DNA of 9,553 bases from Okeania sp. (GTDB lineage Bacteria; Cyanobacteriota; Cyanobacteriia; Cyanobacteriales; Microcoleaceae): positions 1 to 9,553 of the forward strand of contig NZ_JAYKGW010000177.1 of assembly GCF_035285525.1 (NCBI RefSeq), written 5' to 3'. How positions within the stretch are numbered: position 1 is the stretch's first letter; each line of letters opens with the position of its first letter. Positions 1-9,553 of the stretch are shown in pieces. The notes below the pieces were generated by a model, which searched no databases, was not told the origin of the DNA, and was given only the letters and a program-made list of their open reading frames with translations. The position numbers were made by a program, and so were the translations under genes.

Positions 1-299
1 TGAAGTAACAAAACCCAACTTTTAACAACTTTGTGTAGATTGAAATGAAGTAACAAAACCCAACTTTTAACAACTTTGTGTAGATTGAAATGAAGTAACA
101 AAACCCAACTTTTAACAACTTTGTTTAGGTTTATATTGAGGTAAAAAAAACCCAACTTTTAAAAAATCTGTGTAGATTGAAATGAGGTAAAAAAACCCAA
201 CTTTTAACAACTTTGTTTAGGTTTATATTGAGGTAAAAAAAACCCAACTTTTAAAAAATCTGTGTAGGTTGGGTTGAGGTAAAAAAACCCAACTTTTAA
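1..299. repeat. Tandem array of 45/46-bp units, 6 full copies plus one partial, truncated by the window edge
   Basis: Unit boundaries read directly: 1-45, 46-90 (identical), 91-136, 137-182, 183-228, 229-274, and a partial unit 275-299. The conserved core is tgaRgtaaMaaaacccaacttttaa. The remaining ~17 nt takes only three alternating forms (ctttgtgtagattgaaa, ctttgtttaggtttatat, tctgtgtagRttgRRt). Units 91-182 and 183-274 form a 92-bp higher-order repeat. Confidence 0.95.
266..297 (+). terminator. Hairpin plus T-run formed by the last junction of the tandem array (intrinsic-terminator-like)
   Basis: gttgggtt (268-275) pairs with aacccaac (286-293), an 8-bp stem with a 10-nt loop, followed by tttt (294-297). 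Only the last full unit carries ggttgggt in place of gattgaaa, which creates the complementarity. Any gene it would terminate lies off-window to the left. Confidence 0.25.
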
Positions 300-450
300 G
301 ATCAAATCTGCTGGCTTTGGAGAATAAGATTCTACCATCATAAAAGAGCAAAAACTCCTAGTTTGTAGAGGGTATGGTTCCCGAAAAATTGGATACAAAA
401 CCCTACGATATTAAATTCTACCGATGCTACCGGATTTGATATAAAAAGAT

Positions 451-547
451 TATCAGGACTAAAAAAATTAGAAAAGCAATTTCAATTGAGATTGCTTCGC
501 TGTTGCTCGCAATGACAGAAATACCTTGTTTTGCGTAAGTCCTGATT
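451..547. repeat. MITE-like short element bounded by inverted repeats
   Basis: atcaggact (452-460) and agtcctgat (538-546) are perfect 9-bp inverted repeats. There is an internal hairpin, aagcaat (474-480) with attgctt (491-497). The right end carries the dispersed motif gcgtaagtcct. It has no coding capacity. Confidence 0.4.
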
Positions 548-605
548 ATATAGCAATAGGGTTCAGTTAAGGGTTGTTTTTAAAGTTTTGTAGTCTGAAA
601 ACCCT

Positions 606-640
606 AATTATTAATTATTAATTATTAATTATTAATTATT
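606..640. repeat. Heptanucleotide microsatellite (aattatt)x5, STRR-like
   Basis: Five perfect head-to-tail copies of aattatt at 606-640. The last base overlaps the stop codon (640-642, tca = TGA on the minus strand) of the Cas4-like gene. Heptamer tandem repeats (STRR) are characteristic of heterocystous cyanobacteria. Confidence 0.9.
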
Positions 641-1545
641 CAACCACTTCTCTCAAAAAAACTCTGACACCTTTCCCTCTGAGGACAAATATCACACAAA
701 TACTCTTTCTCCGTCCGTGGAGGTGGATCAGATTGAAACCGCTCCCATCTCAACCACTCCCGCATTTCCTCTAACTTACCCGGAACTAAACACTCCACCA
801 CACTCTCCAACTTTTTCCATGAATAATAATACTCCCCCAACTCAGGCAAAACCCAATAAACAACAGTATCAACAGGCACTTTTTTCTTTTGTTTCAATAA
901 AAAACTATAGAGAGCAACCTCTATCAACTGAGACGATACTTCCGCAGTTTCATAAGTTTGAAAATGAAACACACACAAGCGACGAGACTCAAAATCAAAA
1001 ATTAAATTATTAACCTTTCCTGTTAACTTTTGAGCCTTACCATCTGGTATTTTAAAAGTATAATCTACAGGTATTTCTCCCTTAATTAATGTGCGACGAA
1101 ATACAACACTTTCATGGCAGTAACGCCGATTTTTAACAATGATTTCAGTTATATGAAAAATTATTTTAATTAGTACCTGCCAAACTTCATACAGGCAGGT
1201 TGCTAAACTAATATTTTTAGTAATAATTGTTTGTAAATAAGGAAAGAAAATCAACTCATAAAATAATTGTTGTATTTGATTAGCGATCGCCCCTACCTCC
1301 AATCCCTCAAACTGTCCTGTAAACAAAACCTGAACTTTAGATTCTTGCCGAATCATATTAATTAATTGATTAACTAAATCAACAAAAGCACGATCGATTT
1401 CTGGGATATAATCCTGTGGCAAAAAGAGATAATCACCTCCAAAACTTTGTTTTAAATAAAACAAACGGGGGCAATCAAAAGCAACTTTAACATCATTAAT
1501 ATTAAATGGTGGAGATTGTAATTGAGGTTTATTACTTATTGGCAT
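640..1545 (-). CDS. Cas4/RecB-family PD-(D/E)XK superfamily protein with a 4-Cys (Fe-S type) signature; catalytic residues apparently substituted
   Basis: 301-aa ORF. The N-terminal FDCPRLFYL (C25) plus C-terminal C284-x2-C287-x5-C293 (CDICPQRERC) match the Cas4/AddB-type cluster pattern of one N-terminal Cys plus CxxCx5C. TGKVNNLIF...CVFHFQT occupies the position of the G-x-h-D-x-h ... h-h-(D/E)-x-K-T strands, and it is followed by a QL...Y helix. Confidence 0.75.
   Translation of the reverse strand: MPISNKPQLQSPPFNINDVKVAFDCPRLFYLKQSFGGDYLFLPQDYIPEIDRAFVDLVNQLINMIRQESKVQVLFTGQFEGLEVGAIANQIQQLFYELIFFPYLQTIITKNISLATCLYEVWQVLIKIIFHITEIIVKNRRYCHESVVFRRTLIKGEIPVDYTFKIPDGKAQKLTGKVNNLIFDFESRRLCVFHFQTYETAEVSSQLIEVALYSFLLKQKKKVPVDTVVYWVLPELGEYYYSWKKLESVVECLVPGKLEEMREWLRWERFQSDPPPRTEKEYLCDICPQRERCQSFFERSG
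1283..1290. repeat. HIP1 octamer GCGATCGC
   Basis: Exact GCGATCGC. This highly iterated palindrome is typical of cyanobacterial genomes and is used here as a taxonomic hint only. Confidence 0.8.
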
Positions 1546-1664
1546 TGACGGACTATTTTAATTTTCCTGTTTTTTCAAGTAATTAACGTAACTATGGTTT
1601 TCAGAACTTCCATTCTGGAATGCTGCGCCAACAGCTATCATGCCAAATCCGGCATAATAATTAT

Positions 1665-1703
1665 GACAATAAACCGGGTTTATTGCTGGGATGCGTAAGT
1701 CTT
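1665..1703 (-). repeat. Diverged partial copy of the 'aggacttacgca...aaacccggttt' dispersed element
   Basis: The reverse complement reads aagacttacgca-tcccagcaat-aaacccggttt. The element at 5805-5889 reads aggacttacgca-aag-aaacccggttt. The segment contains the 8-1-8 palindrome aataaacc-g-ggtttatt (1668-1684). Confidence 0.45.
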
Positions 1704-1791
1704 GATAGTGCTATAGCCATTCTTATAAATTATCAGTTTTGTCTATAACAATCAGTTGTAGTTTGTGAGAGTTTGTAATATTTTATCTAAC

Positions 1792-1823
1792 GGGGTTTGG
1801 AGACCAAACCCCTACAGTTTTTT
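1792..1823 (+). terminator. GC-rich hairpin with a downstream T-run in the NTPase/Cas4-like intergenic spacer
   Basis: ggggtttgg (1792-1800), loop aga, ccaaacccc (1804-1812), then tacag and tttttt. The T-run is on the plus strand, although both flanking genes are on the minus strand, so it may be a repeat-family hairpin, a terminator of an unannotated plus-strand RNA, or a bidirectional stop. Confidence 0.3.
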
Positions 1824-1946
1824 CTCACATCTCATTCCTGATTGCCATACAATTAATTATAATCATCAATTATACATTCCTGGTTAAAAAAACCATCAAC
1901 TCTCAGTCAATAAACTAATAGCTCAATGCTAAAAGCTGATAGCTAG

Positions 1947-3941
1947 TTAACCAGGAACAAAACAAATTAATTGTTCATCCACATTTGATGTAGGGGCAAG
2001 AATTTTTATTTTTTGTTCTCCCTCAAGTTGTGCAATTATTAGATCAACTTTTGAATGCTCTATTTTGATAAATTGATTTAGTGTATTTTCCAGAATGCTG
2101 TTGCGTTCTATAAAACTTTTTTGTCTAATTAAATTTAACACAAAATTCTTAATTTCATCTAAATCTGGATGATTTTGCTTTTCTTGAATATTTGTAGGAA
2201 AAACTATAGACAAATCTTGTAATAAACTACAGTTATTGAAAATTTGTGATTCACAAATTATCTCTTCTAACTGTTTCAAACTAATAATCTCATCTTCAAT
2301 CGCTAATTCATTAGCCAGGGCAGCATTCACCAAACTATGATATGTAGCCAGAAAATAAACCGACTCCAAATTAGGTATAATGTGAATATTTTTTGACCTA
2401 CCTTGGAAAATTTTTCTATACATTCTGTAACTAAGATTATTAACATTTCCTACATCAGCAGCTCTCAGCAAATATAAAGTTTCACATAACTTTTTATCCA
2501 CAACTTTCTGGCAAGCATTCATCGTATTGAAAAAGCTATTCATATTTGGATCTTCAGTCCAAACTACACCAATAATTTCTTCTTGATTTTGTTGTTTATA
2601 ACTCAAAGAATAGTTAGCATATTTCCCACTTAATAATTTAGTTTTCACCTCCTGATATTGTAAAGCATTTAATACTTCTGCTAACATCCGAATCAATTCC
2701 GGTGCTGCTAAATAAGTAATTTTACTAATTTTTTTCTGAGTCTTGTTGTAGTTTTCTTGCCAAATCAACTTAAAAGTTTCCCAATGTGTTTTTGGTACTA
2801 AATCTTGACTATTTTCTGTCTGATTTAATAATTTTATTTTGTACTGCTCATATTCCTTACGTCCTAACTCTAATATATTCCGAGGTAGAGTTTTACCACT
2901 GGGAAACTTCTGTTCTAATATTTCTTTTGACAAAGGGAATATAGCAGATTCAGGCTGTGGTTTTGCCAGAGAATATAAAAGATTTAATCGAGCTGCTAAT
3001 ATAGCTTCACCCTGTTCTAAACTAATGGGTTTTAAATGAAAATATCCCGCATTAACTCTCGCTTTATCTGCTGGTTGAATCAAGACAGAATTTTGTTTCC
3101 AGGTACTCGTAATAATACTAATAATTATCAAAAAATTCTGTGGATAGTGAGTATGAATACTAGAATTAACATTAAATAATGCTTGTAAATCTAAAGTTCC
3201 ATTTAACAACCGAGGAATATTATCAAGATTATCAAAACATAAAACAATAGGTTGAGACGCAGCCGAAATAATCCCCAAATTAGTAATAATTTTTTGGGCA
3301 GAATCTTCAGAATCTATACTACCTCTAATTCCCAAAGATTTTAAATCCCCCTCATCTAAATCATCCCCCCGTAACCACTCACAAGCAACATCCCTATACT
3401 TAGAATCTAGTAGATGATAAAGAGCGCTGAAAAAATCATTAGGATTATAAATTCCAGAAGGGTAAATTGCCTTGAGATTTCTGATAAATACTCTTCTTTC
3501 ACCAATAATTTTTTGGAGCAAACCACTATTTTGGAAAGTCAATAAACCTTTGAGCCATAGTAACAACTGAGAATCTGTTTTACCCTCCGGAATTTTCATC
3601 AAACAATCAACAGTTTGGCGTAAGATATGTCGCCAAATATAATCGCTATCAGGCCAAGGATCAATATAAACAAAAAAAGCCTTGGTATTGAATAATTTTT
3701 TGATTCTTCCTAAAAGGTAACTTTTACCAGAACCAGAATCACCCGTAAGTATTAAAGTACGAGGATTATGTTCCTGAGCAACCTGCTCCAATACTGTTTC
3801 TATATCACTGATAATATTTTCATGGATAGAATCAACATTTAGACTAGGATTTTGTTGCTCTTGCCAAAAATTAATGGTATAAAGAGTAACGGGGTCGAAA
3901 GGATTCGGTTTTCTTTGAATAATCTGATCTATAGATTCCAT
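1947..3941 (-). CDS. P-loop NTPase, ORC/Cdc6- or STAND-like (AAA_16-like) with an uncharacterised ~340-aa C-terminal region
   Basis: 664-aa ORF. Walker A is GDSGSGKS (aa 67-74, nt 3720-3743, checked codon by codon). Walker B-like is IVLCFDNLD (aa 232-240). A sensor-1-like hydrophobic strand ending in polar residues is LIIISIITST (271-280). HLKPISLEQGEAILAARL (302-319) resembles the 'h-x-L-x-P-L-s-x-e-E-a' lid motif of ORC/STAND ATPases. Confidence 0.85.
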   Translation of the reverse strand: MESIDQIIQRKPNPFDPVTLYTINFWQEQQNPSLNVDSIHENIISDIETVLEQVAQEHNPRTLILTGDSGSGKSYLLGRIKKLFNTKAFFVYIDPWPDSDYIWRHILRQTVDCLMKIPEGKTDSQLLLWLKGLLTFQNSGLLQKIIGERRVFIRNLKAIYPSGIYNPNDFFSALYHLLDSKYRDVACEWLRGDDLDEGDLKSLGIRGSIDSEDSAQKIITNLGIISAASQPIVLCFDNLDNIPRLLNGTLDLQALFNVNSSIHTHYPQNFLIIISIITSTWKQNSVLIQPADKARVNAGYFHLKPISLEQGEAILAARLNLLYSLAKPQPESAIFPLSKEILEQKFPSGKTLPRNILELGRKEYEQYKIKLLNQTENSQDLVPKTHWETFKLIWQENYNKTQKKISKITYLAAPELIRMLAEVLNALQYQEVKTKLLSGKYANYSLSYKQQNQEEIIGVVWTEDPNMNSFFNTMNACQKVVDKKLCETLYLLRAADVGNVNNLSYRMYRKIFQGRSKNIHIIPNLESVYFLATYHSLVNAALANELAIEDEIISLKQLEEIICESQIFNNCSLLQDLSIVFPTNIQEKQNHPDLDEIKNFVLNLIRQKSFIERNSILENTLNQFIKIEHSKVDLIIAQLEGEQKIKILAPTSNVDEQLICFVPG

Positions 3942-4379: not shown

Positions 4380-5204
4380 TTAGTAAGAAATGATGAAAAA
4401 TAAACATCCGCCAATATCTTGAGGAATACCTGCTTCAATTTGTTCTGGTGTGTAAGCTCTTACCTCCTGTAGGGAACTTAATTCTATCTGGTCACTTCTT
4501 TCTAGACGATAGAGTGCTTGATCTAATTCTGTTCGAGATAAAGGAGGCTGTAGTTTTTCTCGTAAATGAAAAATTGGCAAATAGTTATCTGTACCTAGAT
4601 TATGGTCTAAACCTCGAATCACAGCTAAAATCTCAGAGTCAGTAGGTTTACCATTCGACATCTTTGAAGTTATCTTTTGATCTGGCTTAGAGTAGTCAGA
4701 ACAAATATTTGTGCGCATTAACTGGAGGTAATCACTTAACATTTTCAAAGAAATTTCTTTTGCCGTACTGCGGGAGGAATATCCTTGGCATAAAAATTGT
4801 TTTCCTTTTTCTGTTAGCCATACTTCTTTGATTTTCTGAGCAACAACCTCAATCAAACCTTGGTCTGCTAAATCTGCAATAACAGCTTGTCTATAAGTAG
4901 AGTTTATACCAGTCTCCGATGGAGGAATAGCACCCTTAACAGTTGCCTTGAGCAACTTTAACTCTTCCTCAGTTATTGAGCTGACAACTTTTTTACTATC
5001 TAGCAGTAATTTTCCCTGGGGTGATATATTAATTTTTGTAACTTCCTTAGTAAACTTTACTAATCCTTGATCACAAAGTCGGTAACAGATTTCATCCCGT
5101 TCAGAAACCTTCATTTCAGGTTCTGGCTGGATTTTACTAATAGAGACTCTATAGTTTTTGTAGCCTAATAATTTCAAAAGAAACTTAAGATATTTAATAT
5201 TCAT
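4380..5204 (-). CDS. Hypothetical protein with repeated winged-helix-like (wHTH) units; likely DNA-binding
   Basis: 274-aa ORF. There is an internal duplication of the pattern L-x-DQGL-h-x(9-11)-h-x-h-[ST]-x-x-GK-x-h-L: RLCDQGLVKFTKEVTKINISPQGKLLL and DLADQGLIEVVAQKIKEVWLTEKGKQFL. A third related unit is near the C-terminus (LDQALYRLERSDQIELSSL). No enzymatic motif was recognised. An alternative start is at M31. Confidence 0.65.
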   Translation of the reverse strand: MNIKYLKFLLKLLGYKNYRVSISKIQPEPEMKVSERDEICYRLCDQGLVKFTKEVTKINISPQGKLLLDSKKVVSSITEEELKLLKATVKGAIPPSETGINSTYRQAVIADLADQGLIEVVAQKIKEVWLTEKGKQFLCQGYSSRSTAKEISLKMLSDYLQLMRTNICSDYSKPDQKITSKMSNGKPTDSEILAVIRGLDHNLGTDNYLPIFHLREKLQPPLSRTELDQALYRLERSDQIELSSLQEVRAYTPEQIEAGIPQDIGGCLFFIISY

Positions 5205-5706: not shown

Positions 5707-5792
5707 ATATAGGACTTACACGGGAAGAACCCGGTTTCTACAATAATATAGTTGTTTTGAGCAATAGATATCTACCCTCGTACCGGGTTTCT
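5707..5792 (+). repeat. Copy 1 of a duplicated ~85-bp structured element
   Basis: atataggacttacacgggaagaacccggtttctacaataatatagttgttttgagcaatagatatctaccctcgtaccgggtttct. aacccggt (5728-5735) pairs with accgggtt (5782-5789), closing a ~46-nt domain that contains the palindrome tagatatcta (5765-5774). Confidence 0.85.
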
Positions 5793-5804
5793 CCTAAGTT
5801 AAGT

Positions 5805-5889
5805 ATATAGGACTTACGCAAAGAAACCCGGTTTCTACAATAATATAGTTGTTTTGAGCAATAGATATCTACCCTTGTACCGGGTTTCT
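5805..5889 (+). repeat. Copy 2 of the duplicated ~85-bp structured element
   Basis: Nearly identical to 5707-5792. The differences are clustered in the head (acgggaag vs gcaaagaa) plus one c/t change. The closing stem is longer here: agaaacccggt (5822-5832) pairs with accgggtttct (5879-5889). A 12-bp spacer (5793-5804) separates the copies. Confidence 0.85.
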
Positions 5890-6417: not shown

Positions 6418-7605
6418 ATGGTTTCATCAATGCAAAAAGATCGAGCAGTAAGTTTGGAATTGATTCCCATATCCAAAATTACTGTGCCAGAGTCTCAGGA
6501 GAAAGATATTCCACCTGAAAGACATCAAGCTCTACTTAAGAGTCTTGCAGATCAAGGTTGTAACTTGATTCCACTACTTGTTAGATTAAAGGAGAACTAC
6601 GACTCTGAATCTGAACAGCAATACGAAATTATTCGTGGTGCTGATTGGTGTCAAGTTGCCAAAGAAATTGAAATCGAGGAACTATGGGCCTGGGTTTATG
6701 AAATGTCAGATGAACAAGTAGAAATAGCTATAGCAGAGATAGAGCAGTTAACTTATCAACTACATATCTCTGAAACACCAAACTTCGATCATCTACTGCA
6801 GCAACTTGAGGTATCATTTAATCAAAAAGTAGATTCTTTAACCAAAGAAATCGCTCAATCAATGAATAAAAATGAGGAGGTTATCAAAAAACAACTAAAA
6901 TCTTTTGACCAAAAAGTAGATTCTTTAACTCAAAAAATCGACCAATCAATGAATAAAAATGAGGAGGTTATCAAAAAACAACTAAAATCTTGGCAGGACA
7001 AAAGCATTGACATTAATCAAATTGAGCAGCTCAAAGATTTGATTACAAGCTTAGAAAATTCAATTAACAATAAGGTAGAAACATTGGCAGGAAAAATCGC
7101 AAGCTCAACAACTAAAAAAACAACATCTATTTCTACAGGAGTGAAAATGGAATTATTATCAAAACAACTTGACGATCTTGATAGACAAATAGAGAAAAAA
7201 CTCGAAGGGATGGTCAAAACAGTTAATCAGTTTTCTCAGTCAATTCAAGACTTAGAAGATGACTTAAAAGTTCAGGTCTCAGCCGTTCGACGTCATTTGC
7301 AGGCAATGCCAGAATTTGATTCTGTTGCCGAAGTAGAAACTAAAACTGATACACCAAGCAAGACAACGACCAAGAGTAAGTCCACTTCCACAACCTCTAA
7401 ACCTAAGACGACTAGCACAAAAACTACTACTAGAAAGACTAAATCTAGCTCACAGGTGGAGCCAGAAGTTCCCATTGATGATTATGATACTAAGTCACTG
7501 AGACAACTGAAGAAAATCGCCCAAGAACGGAAGTTGCGTGGTTATGCGCGGATGAAGCGTCCGGAAATTCTTAAGGCTCTTCGGGAAGCTGATGCTGCTA
7601 GTTAG
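6418..7605 (+). CDS. Chimeric protein: ParB/Srx-like N-terminal domain, long coiled-coil with an internal repeat, S/T/K-rich linker, and a C-terminal Rho_N (SAP/HeH-like) motif
   Basis: 395-aa ORF. The N-terminus, LELIPISKITVP...LLKSLADQGCNLIPLLVRL...YEIIRGADWCQVAKE, follows the ParB N-domain pattern (i-x-v-x-x-i ... S-i-x-x-x-G-x-x-x-P-i-i-V ... y-x-i-i-x-G-x-x-R-x-x-A), but GADW replaces the GERR arginine patch. Aa 309-345 are almost entirely T, S and K. The C-terminal LRQLKKIAQERKLRGYARMKRPEILKAL closely parallels the E. coli Rho N-terminal helix-extended-helix (ELITLGENMGLENLARMRKQDIIFAIL). Confidence 0.8.
   Translation: MVSSMQKDRAVSLELIPISKITVPESQEKDIPPERHQALLKSLADQGCNLIPLLVRLKENYDSESEQQYEIIRGADWCQVAKEIEIEELWAWVYEMSDEQVEIAIAEIEQLTYQLHISETPNFDHLLQQLEVSFNQKVDSLTKEIAQSMNKNEEVIKKQLKSFDQKVDSLTQKIDQSMNKNEEVIKKQLKSWQDKSIDINQIEQLKDLITSLENSINNKVETLAGKIASSTTKKTTSISTGVKMELLSKQLDDLDRQIEKKLEGMVKTVNQFSQSIQDLEDDLKVQVSAVRRHLQAMPEFDSVAEVETKTDTPSKTTTKSKSTSTTSKPKTTSTKTTTRKTKSSSQVEPEVPIDDYDTKSLRQLKKIAQERKLRGYARMKRPEILKALREADAAS
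6817..6990 (+). repeat. In-frame 87-bp (29-codon) tandem duplication inside the ParB-like gene
   Basis: 6817-6903 encodes FNQKVDSLTKEIAQSMNKNEEVIKKQLKS and 6904-6990 encodes FDQKVDSLTQKIDQSMNKNEEVIKKQLKS. I count 7 nucleotide differences, all in the first 39 nt. The last 48 nt of each copy are identical. Confidence 0.95.
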
Positions 7606-9420: not shown

Positions 9421-9480
9421 AGGGGCGGGTTTTTATCTAAGAGTTCAATGCTCAACCCAAAATTAAGTAAACCCGCCCCT
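9421..9480. repeat. GC-rich 12-bp inverted repeat (MITE-like ends, or a long-loop hairpin downstream of the glycosyltransferase gene)
   Basis: aggggcgggttt (9421-9432) is the exact reverse complement of aaacccgcccct (9469-9480), which recurs at 9530-9541. The arms are separated by 36 nt. The right arm is followed by gaaaattaatttttt. Confidence 0.6.
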
Positions 9481-9553
9481 GAAAATTAATTTTTTATCTA
9501 AGAGTTCAATGCTCAACCCAAAATTAAGTAAACCCGCCCCTGAAAATTAATTT
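9430..9553. repeat. Perfect 61-bp tandem duplication running into the window edge
   Basis: 9430-9490 and 9491-9551 are identical (tttttatctaagagttcaatgctcaacccaaaattaagtaaacccgcccctgaaaattaat). 9552-9553 begin a further copy. The true copy number is unknown because the window ends. Confidence 0.95.

What the first reader, a model, noticed from the sequence alone, without database searches (positions are those of the whole stretch)
958..1020. Cas4-like protein keeps its Fe-S cysteines but seems to have lost the catalytic D / (D/E)xK triad
By manual alignment to the canonical Cas4/RecB nuclease core (G-x-h-D-x-h, about 14 aa, then h-h-(D/E)-x-K-T), the sequence reads G176-K-V-N179-N-L ... V-F-H194-F-Q196-T. 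The motif II Asp is therefore Asn (codon 1009-1011), the motif III acid is His (964-966) and the Lys is Gln (958-960). All four cluster cysteines are intact: C25 at 1471-1473, and C284, C287 and C293 across 667-696. This pattern suggests a nuclease-dead Cas4-fold protein retained for DNA-end or structure recognition or as a scaffold, which would be unusual for a stand-alone Cas4-family gene. D184 and E186 (IFDFES) lie between the two strands and might substitute, so inactivation is an inference and not a fact.
Basis: inference. Interest (0 to 1): 0.65.

Follow-up and report, generated by a model that had tools for sequence, protein, structure and literature searches.

The report
Catalytically dead Cas4-like operon remnant
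This 301-residue cyanobacterial protein is the surviving middle domain of a much larger exonuclease-nuclease-DNA-pump protein; it has kept its fold and iron-sulfur cysteines but lost all five active-site residues, so it most likely binds DNA or partner proteins rather than cutting DNA.

Summary
ORF 640-1545 (-) has a Cas4/AddB/Dna2-type fold. It keeps C25 and C284/C287/C293.

A family profile aligned to mouse Dna2 places V55, N179, H194, Q196 and E209 at the columns of the Dna2 active-site residues His164, Asp278, Glu299, Lys301 and Gln314. All five are replaced, not three. D184 and E186 cannot substitute, because active relatives vary at those columns.

The gene is not stand-alone. It is the third gene of an operon conserved across cyanobacteria:
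- a multi-winged-helix protein;
- an Orc/Cdc6-type AAA+ ATPase;
- an ~860-aa protein made of a 3'-5' exonuclease, a Cas4-like nuclease and an FtsK motor.

This matches the 'HerA/FtsK capture' counter-invader systems predicted by Rakesh et al. (NAR 2024).

In 59 species genomes outside one clade the Cas4-like domain is canonical. In Okeania, Dapis, Trichodesmium (Tery_0153) and related Microcoleaceae, the exonuclease, the motor and the active site are all gone. The ORF nevertheless stays intact, with dN/dS about 0.30, and its partner genes show about 0.19.

Best reading: a nuclease-dead Fe-S module retained as a DNA-binding or scaffolding subunit. This is a new variant of a computationally predicted system. 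Its biochemistry is untested.

The parts
640..1545 (-). Gene for the 301-aa nuclease-dead Cas4/AddB/Dna2-like Fe-S protein. It is identical to an Okeania sp. hypothetical protein and orthologous to Tery_0153.
   Evidence: ORF list. 100% match to P0001. AF2 model with pLDDT 80.6 and pTM 0.74. Foldseek top hits are ACE1, AdnA, SSO0001 Cas4, AddB and Dna2. Tery_0153 identified.
1381..1383 (-). V55, at the column of the metal-ligand His (Dna2 His164; family motif G-x-x-F-H).
   Evidence: His in 61 of 62 canonical loci; V/L/I in the dead clade. Profile alignment to Dna2. Role of His164 from PMC4716839.
1009..1011 (-). N179, at the motif II Asp column (Dna2 Asp278).
   Evidence: Asp in 62 of 62 canonical loci; Asn in 26 of 27 loci of the dead clade.
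958..966 (-). H194-F-Q196, at the motif III (D/E)-x-K columns (Dna2 Glu299 and Lys301).
   Evidence: Column 194 is E or D in 62 of 62 canonical loci, against H/N/D (and S in one metagenomic protein) in the dead clade. Column 196 is K in 61 of 62, against Q in 27 of 27.
919..921 (-). E209, at the motif IV Gln column (Dna2 Gln314, which buttresses the Lys). Y213 (907-909) is retained.
   Evidence: Gln in 62 of 62 canonical loci; A/G/E in the dead clade..
1471..1473 (-). C25, the first Fe-S cluster cysteine (C-P-R-L-F motif; aligns with Dna2 Cys137).
   Evidence: Invariant in all loci. Alignment to Dna2.
667..696 (-). C284-x2-C287-x5-C293, the C-terminal Fe-S cysteine triad.
   Evidence: Invariant in all full-length members, including all dead ones. 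Aligns with the C-x2-C-x5-C of Dna2 and type I-C Cas4.
1546..1946 (.). 401-bp spacer between the ATPase gene and the Cas4-like gene. In canonical relatives the ~180-aa 3'-5' exonuclease domain is encoded here, 10-50 bp after the ATPase stop.
   Evidence: Gene coordinates. No exonuclease relic by tblastn at E<=1. Sequence read.
1..639 (.). Region downstream of the gene, where canonical relatives encode the FtsK-alpha/FtsK motor. Here it is non-coding, with a 45-nt tandem repeat (1-299) and (TAATTAT)x5 (605-640).
   Evidence: No FtsK relic. Tandem Repeats Finder.
1947..3941 (-). Second operon gene: a 664-aa Orc/Cdc6-type AAA+ ATPase with Walker A G67-x2-G70-S-G72-K73 and Walker B D237. The model also shows an alpha/beta insert at about 385-580 and a C-terminal winged helix at about 592-661.
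   Evidence: Weak Pfam AAA_16/KAP/AAA_22 hits. AF2 model with pLDDT 85. Foldseek top hits are Orc4, Cdc6, Orc1 and archaeal Cdc6. Invariant Walker residues. UniRef name 'Orc1-like AAA ATPase' for Tery_0152.
4380..5204 (-). First operon gene: a 274-aa protein with at least two winged-helix domains (DndG-like multi-wHTH partner).
   Evidence: The profile of 28 orthologues hits MarR/SlyA wHTH (residues 69-173, E 6e-5) and Z-alpha-type wHTH (187-243). It lies next to the ATPase in nearly all loci.

Best explanation
The protein is a nuclease-dead Cas4/AddB/Dna2-type domain.

What it descends from. Its ancestor was the central domain of an ~860-aa effector made of a 3'-5' exonuclease, a Cas4-like PD-(D/E)XK nuclease and an FtsK-alpha/FtsK DNA motor. 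That effector is encoded after a multi-winged-helix protein and an Orc/Cdc6-type AAA+ ATPase. This gene set has been predicted computationally to be a 'HerA/FtsK capture' counter-invader system.

What changed. In the common ancestor of Okeania, Dapis, Trichodesmium and some other Microcoleaceae, the exonuclease and the motor were deleted. K196Q is shared by all members of the clade and so came first. The remaining active-site residues then went: H55 to V/L/I, D179 to N, D/E194 to H/N/S, and Q209 to A/G/E.

What remains. The fold is kept, with its N- and C-terminal helices stapled by a cluster bound to C25 and C284/C287/C293.

How it most likely works (inferred). It still forms the Fe-S-supported DNA-binding groove or tunnel of this fold. 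It acts as a non-cutting DNA-end or ssDNA-binding subunit, or as a scaffold, for the still-intact ATPase and wHTH proteins.

Shown here: homology, fold, loss of all five catalytic residues, loss of the flanking domains, operon context and purifying selection.

Inferred: cluster binding, DNA binding, and physical association with the ATPase.
For: Fold:
- AF2 model with pLDDT 80.6.
- Foldseek hits to Fe-S Cas4-family nucleases ACE1, AdnA, SSO0001, AddB and Dna2, E 7e-6 to 7e-4.

Catalytic columns:
- The family profile aligns to mouse Dna2 (E 1e-5). It places family H/D/E/K/Q on His164/Asp278/Glu299/Lys301/Gln314, and the cysteines on the Dna2 cluster cysteines.
- The roles of those Dna2 residues come from the crystal-structure paper.
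- The window has V/N/H/Q/E at these columns.
- All 59 species genomes outside the clade are canonical. All 21 species genomes inside it (27 loci) are degenerate, with the four Cys kept wherever the region is present.
- Column 194 varies within the clade (H/N/D/S), as expected for a residue no longer used.
- Changes are focused on the active site, while 77 of 102 highly conserved columns are kept.

Ancestry:
- The clade is monophyletic and nested among full-length forms in a neighbour-joining tree.
- There is no exonuclease or FtsK relic within +-8 kb in 23 loci.

Selection:
- Median dN/dS is 0.30 (range 0.20-0.44, 91 pairs). The same domain in canonical relatives gives 0.175.
- The partner genes give 0.19 in the dead clade.
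- The ATPase Walker A and B residues are invariant.

Link to the ATPase:
- Gene order is conserved in about 85 loci.
- P0147 fuses AAA_16, PDDEXK and HerA domains in one polypeptide.

System identity:
- The ATPase has an Orc/Cdc6 fold and the first gene is a wHTH protein.
- The FtsK part of relatives matches the SspH and DndH C-termini, 1e-66 and 4e-111.
- The description in PMC10853773 fits this gene set.
Against: - There is no biochemistry. Cluster binding, DNA binding and lack of nuclease activity are all inferred from sequence.
- I could not inspect model coordinates. The active-site assignment rests on profile alignment to a solved structure, not on superposition.
- E157, a conserved acid just before the first core strand, is retained, as are T197 and Y213. 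Some PD-(D/E)XK enzymes work with Gln or Glu in place of Lys (BglII and BamHI, from my own knowledge), so K196Q alone would not prove inactivation.
- dN/dS is about 1.7-fold higher than in canonical relatives, so constraint is relaxed.
- With the exonuclease, nuclease and motor all gone, it is unclear what output the remaining three-protein set produces.
- The 130-990 bp spacer to the ATPase gene in this clade leaves co-transcription unproven.
Confidence: 0.66

Rival explanations
1. The gene is a functionless relic. After the exonuclease and FtsK modules were deleted, the leftover domain is drifting slowly and has no role of its own.
For: - All enzymatic parts of the effector are gone.
- dN/dS is higher than in canonical relatives, 0.30 against 0.175.
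- The spacer to the ATPase gene is long, variable and repeat-rich.
- One Trichodesmium MAG copy (L032) is broken into a 141-aa ORF.
Against: - The ~301-codon ORF, with a conserved start, is intact in 26 of 27 loci across at least three genera, at up to 32% amino-acid divergence.
- dN/dS is far below 1 in all 91 pairs.
- All four Cys and 77 of 102 highly conserved columns are kept, and the changes are focused on the active site rather than spread evenly.
Confidence: 0.14
2. The system is still a working restriction-type machine. The dead Cas4-like protein acts with a nuclease, exonuclease or FtsK/HerA motor encoded elsewhere in these genomes (a split system), or with the neighbouring ParB_N-Rho_N protein.
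For: - The ATPase and wHTH genes are as constrained as in canonical relatives, dN/dS 0.19.
- The family is modular. FtsK or the exonuclease has been lost or split in other lineages that keep canonical motifs: P0022-24, L043, L069 and L088.
- A ParB_N-Rho_N gene sits divergently upstream in the dead-clade loci but not beside the operon in canonical ones.
Against: - No FtsK or exonuclease homologue lies within +-8 kb in 23 loci.
- No evidence links the ParB-like gene functionally to the operon.
- Whole genomes of this clade could not be searched with the tools left.
Confidence: 0.13
3. The protein is still a nuclease. It would use a non-canonical site, for example E157 with H194 and D184/E186, or N179/Q196 acting as in Gln-type PD-(D/E)XK variants.
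For: - E157, T197, Y213 and D184/E186 are conserved within the clade.
- His can ligate metals.
- Lys-less PD-(D/E)XK enzymes exist (my own knowledge).
Against: - All three metal ligands, the Lys and its buttressing Gln are replaced together.
- Column 194 is H, N, D or S among close relatives.
- In canonical relatives, column 184 is mostly N, and H, S, K, Q, L or R in others. Column 186 can be A, Q, T, P, N, S or D. Neither column is part of the ancestral site.
Confidence: 0.05

Closest known systems
Orc/Cdc6-coupled 'HerA/FtsK capture' counter-invader systems (Rakesh, Aravind and Krishnan, NAR 2024, PMC10853773); a computational prediction with no experiments found
   Same: The gene set matches the paper's description:
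- an Orc/Cdc6-type AAA+ ATPase with an insert and a C-terminal wHTH;
- a separate multi-wHTH (DndG-like) protein;
- in relatives, a restriction-endonuclease-fold nuclease fused to an FtsK-alpha/FtsK motor and sometimes to a 3'-5' exonuclease.
   Different: - In this window the nuclease is dead, and both the HerA/FtsK motor and the exonuclease are absent.
- In cyanobacteria the operon is not obviously mobile. It is syntenic with GT4/GT2 glycosyltransferase, ParA-like and IleRS genes across orders.
- I did not find the degenerate Trichodesmium/Okeania form mentioned in the paper or in its one supplementary file held as text.
Dna2, AddB and AdnA nuclease domains (Fe-S 'iron-staple' RecB-family nucleases)
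   Same: - The fold and the C...C-x2-C-x5-C cluster cysteines match.
- The profile aligns to Dna2 across all motifs.
- In Dna2 and AddB the cluster domain supports the loop that makes the DNA tunnel (PMC4716839).
   Different: - Those domains are active nucleases fused to SF1 helicases.
- This protein has none of the five catalytic residues and no helicase.
CRISPR-associated Cas4 (PF01930/TIGR00372; SSO0001 4ic1, type I-C Cas4 8d3l)
   Same: Same fold and cysteine pattern. There are weak profile hits: 8d3l E 0.046 and 4ic1 E 0.3. Foldseek gives E 9e-5.
   Different: - No cas genes or CRISPR array lie in the window or in related loci.
- The protein carries a ~100-residue helical insert (48-152).
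- The catalytic residues are lost.
- The window protein does not reach any Cas4 model threshold.
ACE1, Argonaute-associated Cas4-family enzyme 1 of cyanobacteria (9iac, 9iab)
   Same: It is the best Foldseek match (E 7e-6), and it is also a cyanobacterial Cas4-family protein that is not associated with CRISPR.
   Different: - Sequence identity is only 11-14% and TM-score 0.33-0.49.
- No Argonaute gene lies nearby.
- I did not align ACE1's active-site residues here.
Inactivated nuclease-like domain of RecC, and the inactive REase inserts of DndH-related systems
   Same: Both are precedents for a RecB/REase-fold domain that has lost catalysis and is kept as a DNA-guiding or DNA-binding module. 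The RecC case is from my own knowledge. The inactive REase (iREase) case is in PMC10853773.
   Different: - RecC has no Fe-S cluster and is not a homologue at the family level.
- The iREase of this system sits inside the Orc/Cdc6 protein, not in this gene.
DndH and SspH (phosphorothioate-linked restriction subunits)
   Same: The FtsK/HerA parts of canonical relatives match the C-termini of SspH (1e-66) and DndH (4e-111).
   Different: - The window protein has no such motor.
- There are no dnd or ssp modification genes in the window.
- The match of the ATPase to SspF covers only the P-loop.

Membership tests
Cas4/RecB-family PD-(D/E)XK nuclease with Fe-S cluster (PF12705 PDDEXK_1 / PF01930 Cas_Cas4) | Fold of the Cas4/AddB/Dna2 nuclease domain | tested here: met
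   The AF2 model (pLDDT 80.6) hits ACE1, AdnA, SSO0001, AddB, Dna2 and RecE by Foldseek, E 7e-6 to 7e-4, TM-score 0.3-0.49.
Cas4/RecB-family PD-(D/E)XK nuclease with Fe-S cluster (PF12705 PDDEXK_1 / PF01930 Cas_Cas4) | Four cluster cysteines, C ... C-x2-C-x5-C | tested here: met
   C25, C284, C287 and C293 are present and invariant across the family. They align with the Dna2 cysteines. Actual cluster binding is not testable here.
Cas4/RecB-family PD-(D/E)XK nuclease with Fe-S cluster (PF12705 PDDEXK_1 / PF01930 Cas_Cas4) | Metal ligands: His (G-x-x-x-H), motif II Asp, motif III Asp/Glu | tested here: not met
   V55, N179 and H194 sit at the columns of Dna2 His164, Asp278 and Glu299.
Cas4/RecB-family PD-(D/E)XK nuclease with Fe-S cluster (PF12705 PDDEXK_1 / PF01930 Cas_Cas4) | Motif III Lys and motif IV Q-x3-Y | tested here: not met
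   Q196 replaces Lys and E209 replaces Gln. Only Y213 is kept.
Cas4/RecB-family PD-(D/E)XK nuclease with Fe-S cluster (PF12705 PDDEXK_1 / PF01930 Cas_Cas4) | Score above the Pfam gathering threshold | tested here: not met
   PF12705 gives 12.3 bits against a cut-off of 22 (E 0.16), covering residues 202-294 only. 16 of 20 relatives match PF12705 at E<=0.1, best 1.2e-19. Homology to the family is therefore secure through intermediates.
CRISPR-associated Cas4 | Genomic association with cas1/cas2 or a CRISPR array | tested here: not met
   There are no cas genes among the window ORFs or in the related loci whose genes were listed. The only repeats are head-to-tail tandem arrays without spacers.
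Orc/Cdc6-coupled HerA/FtsK capture system (PMC10853773) | Orc/Cdc6-family AAA+ ATPase | tested here: met
   The AF2 model of ORF 1947-3941 (pLDDT 85) has Orc4, Cdc6, Orc1 and archaeal Cdc6 as top Foldseek hits. Walker A and B residues are invariant.
Orc/Cdc6-coupled HerA/FtsK capture system (PMC10853773) | Inactive REase domain inserted between the AAA+ core and the C-terminal wHTH of the ATPase | tested here: inconclusive
   The model shows an alpha/beta insert (about 385-580, helix, three strands, helix, strand) and a C-terminal winged helix (about 592-661). The insert was not searched on its own, so a REase fold is not shown.
Orc/Cdc6-coupled HerA/FtsK capture system (PMC10853773) | Active REase-fold nuclease | tested here: not met
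   The only candidate, ORF 640-1545, lacks all five catalytic residues. It is canonical in 59 species genomes outside the clade.
Orc/Cdc6-coupled HerA/FtsK capture system (PMC10853773) | HerA/FtsK ATPase domain | tested here: not met
   It is absent from the window and from +-8 kb in 23 sister loci, even at E<=1. It is present and fused in most canonical loci. The rest of these genomes was not searched.
Orc/Cdc6-coupled HerA/FtsK capture system (PMC10853773) | [quoted passage not shown] | tested here: met
   The profile of ORF 4380-5204 orthologues hits MarR/SlyA and Z-alpha winged helices in two separate regions. A specific relationship to DndG was not shown, since there was no PADLOC DndG or SspB hit.

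The most novel reading that the evidence does not exclude
A lineage of marine filamentous cyanobacteria that includes the bloom-forming diazotroph Trichodesmium has turned a predicted DNA-destroying anti-invader machine into an effector-less complex. The complex would consist of an Orc/Cdc6-type ATPase, a multi-wHTH protein and an Fe-S Cas4-fold DNA binder, and it is still under selection.

That would mean the recognition half of these systems has a function independent of cutting or pumping DNA. Possibilities include occluding or silencing particular DNA ends or replication intermediates, or a regulatory role in which the Fe-S cluster reports redox or iron status.

A second, independent clade (P0032, P0033, P0041, P0061, P0087) also has a dead site but intact cysteines. 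This would make 'Fe-S Cas4 fold as a non-catalytic DNA-binding module' a recurrent solution.
Probability: 0.3. Interest if true: 0.6.

Novelty: new variant of a known kind. Interest (0 to 1): 0.42.

Why it matters
- The parent operon is widespread in filamentous cyanobacteria. At least 104 species-level genomes encode a relative. It has only been predicted, never tested.
- This clade offers a natural minimal version. It separates the recognition and scaffold parts (ATPase, wHTH protein, Fe-S domain) from the destructive parts (exonuclease, nuclease, motor).
- If the dead protein still binds a cluster and DNA, it would join RecC-type domains as an example of a nuclease fold reused as a DNA-binding module. 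It would also isolate the role of the Fe-S 'staple' from catalysis in an easily purified 301-aa protein.
- For annotation, NCBI names such as 'PD-(D/E)XK nuclease family protein' for these proteins overstate their activity.
- It is not a new kind of system. The loss of function itself is a common evolutionary outcome.

Tried and rejected
- Direct scans of the window protein. Pfam gave only a sub-threshold PDDEXK_1 hit. NCBIfam and PADLOC gave nothing. A single-sequence PDB search gave nothing.
- The first profile (A1) against PDB hit only RNase D/NrnC-type exonucleases, because the alignment carried the fused N-termini. A domain-only profile (A4) was needed to reach Dna2 and Cas4.
- D184/E186 as substitute catalytic residues: rejected. 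These columns vary in canonical relatives (184 is mostly N; 186 can be A, Q, T, P or N).
- CRISPR link: rejected. There are no cas genes, and the repeats are plain tandem arrays.
- Relics of the exonuclease or FtsK in the flanks of 23 sister loci: none at E<=1.
- The apparent similarity of the N-terminus MPISNK to the exonuclease motif RPLSDK in the MAFFT alignment is too short to interpret.
- Rfam and tRNA scans of the window found nothing.
- The promoter and terminator scan was no better than shuffles.
- Literature. Searches for Tery_0151 to Tery_0153 found no paper. The 2004 FtsK-HerA paper is not held. The 'FtsK' used in Anabaena two-hybrid work is All7666, and I could not tie it to this operon. 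The one held supplement of PMC10853773 has no cyanobacterial entries.
- A tblastn with the second degenerate clade against the fetched loci showed only about 45-50% identity to the canonical genes and no separate paralogous copy. Their origin stays open.
- I ran no further search on an FtsK query. Only 120 hits are listed, so absence from Trichodesmium or Okeania could not have been concluded from it.
Full report
**Observation.** The minus-strand ORF 640-1545 encodes 301 aa. It is identical to a hypothetical protein of an Okeania sp. contig of the same length as the window.
- G176, N179 (1009-1011), H194 (964-966) and Q196 (958-960);
- C25 (1471-1473), C284, C287 and C293 (667-696);
- D184 and E186.

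Direct database scans are nearly silent. Pfam gives PDDEXK_1 at E 0.16, below threshold. NCBIfam, PADLOC and a single-sequence PDB search give nothing.

**Fold and catalytic columns.** An AlphaFold2 model built on 20 homologues is confident (pLDDT 80.6, pTM 0.74). Its best PDB matches are all Fe-S Cas4-family nucleases: ACE1, AdnA, SSO0001 Cas4, AddB and Dna2, followed by RecE.

A profile of the domain alone (alignment A4) hits mouse Dna2 at E 1e-5 and aligns motif by motif:

| Family motif | Dna2 residue | Window residue |
|---|---|---|
| G-x-x-F-H | His164 | V55 |
| G-r-l-D | Asp278 | N179 |
| v-E-f-K-T | Glu299, Lys301 | H194, Q196 |
| Q-v-A-l-Y | Gln314 | E209 |
| C-P-R | Cys137 | C25 |
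| C-x2-C-x5-C | the Dna2 cluster triad | C284, C287, C293 |

The Dna2 structure paper states that His164, Asp278 and Glu299 ligate the catalytic metal. It also states that Lys301 holds the attacking water and that Gln314 buttresses Lys301 (PMC4716839). Y213 and the conserved E157 remain.

D184 and E186 are not a hidden site. In catalytically canonical relatives, column 184 is mostly Asn and column 186 can be Ala, Gln, Thr, Pro or Asn.

**Relatives.** Close homologues (68-84% identity, about 301 aa) come from Okeania, Dapis, Trichodesmium and other Microcoleaceae. The T. erythraeum IMS101 orthologue is Tery_0153.

More distant homologues are multidomain proteins. The Cas4-like domain is preceded by a PF01612 3'-5' exonuclease, or by a YbjN domain. 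It is followed by an FtsK-alpha/FtsK or HerA ATPase.

A scan of species-representative genomes found 104 loci and returned 80. I mapped all genes in these by tblastn and ORF extension:
- In 59 species genomes (Nostocales, Coleofasciculaceae, Argonema, Aerosakkonema, Prochloron and others) the gene order is a ~280-aa protein, a ~690-aa ATPase and a gene of usually ~860 aa encoding exonuclease, Cas4-like domain and FtsK. All 59 carry D / D-or-E / K.
- In 21 species genomes of the Okeania-Dapis-Trichodesmium group (27 loci counting the window and earlier fetches) the third gene is only ~301 aa.
  - Column 55 is V/L/I and column 179 is N (D in one locus).
  - Column 194 is H/N/D and column 196 is always Q.
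  - Column 209 is A/G/E.
  - All four cysteines are present wherever the region is present.

No exonuclease or FtsK remnant lies within 8 kb in 23 of these loci, even at E<=1.

A neighbour-joining tree puts the clade on one long branch nested among full-length forms. K196Q is shared by all members. D179 survives in one locus (L028) and D194 in another (L018). So the Lys went first and the acids later.

102 columns are at least 90% conserved in canonical relatives, and 77 are kept in this clade. The non-conservative changes are essentially the active-site motifs.

**Selection.** Pairwise Nei-Gojobori dN/dS gives these medians:

| Set | Gene or domain | Median dN/dS |
|---|---|---|
| 14 genomes of the dead clade | Cas4-like gene | 0.30 (range 0.20-0.44, 91 pairs) |
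| 14 genomes of the dead clade | ATPase | 0.19 |
| 14 genomes of the dead clade | ~274-aa protein | 0.19 |
| Canonical relatives | Cas4-like domain | 0.175 |
| Canonical relatives | exonuclease | 0.19 |
| Canonical relatives | FtsK | 0.13 |

The remnant is therefore under relaxed but clear purifying selection. Its partners are as constrained as ever.

**The system.**
- The 664-aa neighbour models confidently (pLDDT 85). Its best structural matches are Orc4, Cdc6, Orc1 and archaeal Cdc6.
- The model also shows an alpha/beta insert and a C-terminal winged helix.
- Walker A and B residues are invariant in both clades.
- The 274-aa protein has at least two winged-helix regions.
- P0147 fuses AAA_16, PDDEXK and HerA domains in one chain. 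This links the ATPase and the Cas4-like domain functionally.
- The FtsK parts of relatives match the C-termini of SspH and DndH.

This led to Rakesh, Aravind and Krishnan (NAR 2024). They describe 'HerA/FtsK capture systems' in which an Orc/Cdc6 ATPase, carrying an inserted inactive REase and a C-terminal wHTH, is combined with an active REase and a HerA/FtsK domain. Some versions have FtsK-alpha, some have a fused 3'-5' exonuclease, and some have a DndG-like multi-wHTH protein. The authors propose that these systems intercept invading DNA.

The cyanobacterial operon fits that description. I found no experimental work on it, and no paper mentions Tery_0151 to Tery_0153.

In cyanobacteria the operon is stably syntenic. 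A ParA-like gene lies within 8 kb in 41 of 62 canonical loci, and directly downstream in the loci I inspected. GT4 and GT2 glycosyltransferase genes lie upstream, and IleRS lies nearby. It therefore looks vertically inherited rather than mobile.

**Explanation and rivals.**
- Most likely (about 0.66): the protein is a nuclease-dead Fe-S domain kept as a DNA-binding or scaffolding subunit of the ATPase/wHTH pair. The catalytic loss, the domain losses and the selection are shown. Cluster binding, DNA binding and complex formation are inferred from what the fold does in Dna2 and AddB.
- Slowly decaying relic (about 0.14). Intact ORFs, focused substitutions and dN/dS of 0.3 argue against it.
- Split system whose motor or nuclease is encoded elsewhere, or which uses the neighbouring ParB_N-Rho_N protein (about 0.13). 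This was not testable, because whole genomes could not be searched.
- Non-canonical active nuclease (about 0.05). Simultaneous loss of all five residues and variability at column 194 argue against it.

**Verdict.** It is wrong about the gene being stand-alone. The finding is a degenerate, previously unremarked variant of a computationally predicted system. It is moderately interesting, mainly as a natural experiment that separates recognition from destruction and the Fe-S fold from catalysis.

Noticed in passing
window 1-299, 605-640, 5707-5889, 9430-9553: The non-coding DNA is rich in repeats. A 45-nt tandem repeat x6.6 sits at the contig end, just downstream of the dead gene, where relatives encode FtsK. 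(TAATTAT)x5 follows the stop codon directly. There is a 97-nt repeat x1.9 between the wHTH and ParB-like genes, and a perfect 61-nt repeat x2 at the other contig end. None has spacers, so they are not CRISPR arrays.
   Followed up: partly
window 6418-7605 (+): This 395-aa protein has a ParB_N domain, coiled-coil repeats (an in-frame 87-nt tandem repeat at 6823-7021), a Ser/Thr/Lys-rich tract and a C-terminal Rho_N domain. It lies divergently next to the operon in most dead-clade loci, but not beside it in canonical loci. Its arrival may coincide with the loss of the effector domains. No functional link has been shown.
   Followed up: partly
window 640-1545 compared with L018, L010, L007 and others: Synonymous divergence of the Cas4-like gene is lower than that of the two upstream genes in several genome pairs. 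Window against L018 gives dS 0.27, against 0.81 and 1.09. This may reflect recombination or gene conversion of this gene among lineages, or extra constraint on its synonymous sites.
   Followed up: no
proteins P0032, P0033, P0041, P0061, P0087 (metagenomic): A second, separate clade has degenerate Cas4 motifs (for example D/N/Q, I/V/P, P/Q/Q, S/H/S). It keeps all four cysteines. P0033, P0041 and P0061 were confirmed by Pfam to retain the FtsK motor plus an exonuclease or YbjN N-terminus. So loss of catalysis with retention of the Fe-S cysteines has happened at least twice in this family.
   Followed up: partly
L001 10001-11473 (Symploca sp. SIO2E9, P0025): This is an exonuclease plus Cas4-like protein without FtsK and without the ATPase or wHTH neighbours. 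It has H55N and K196Q but keeps D179 and E194. It may be an independent, partial inactivation in a different context.
   Followed up: no
L088 7992-8885 (Aphanothece hegewaldii); L043 and L069; P0022-P0024: The effector is modular. Aphanothece has a 297-aa Cas4-like protein with no exonuclease or FtsK fusion but with canonical D/E/K. L043 and L069 lack only the exonuclease. P0022-P0024 lack only FtsK. Loss of the flanking domains does not by itself entail loss of the active site.
   Followed up: partly
L029, L033, L039, L041, L053 at about 10150-11100 (and 41 of 62 canonical loci): In the loci inspected, a ParA/CbiA-family ATPase gene follows the exonuclease-Cas4-FtsK gene on the same strand, about 150-200 bp downstream. 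It may be a fourth member of the ancestral operon. That ParA-like gene was found in only 3 of the 27 dead-clade loci.
   Followed up: no
window 717-1013 (+): A 98-aa antisense ORF lies inside the Cas4-like gene and overlaps the motif II/III codons. There is no evidence that it is a gene, and I did not examine it.
   Followed up: no
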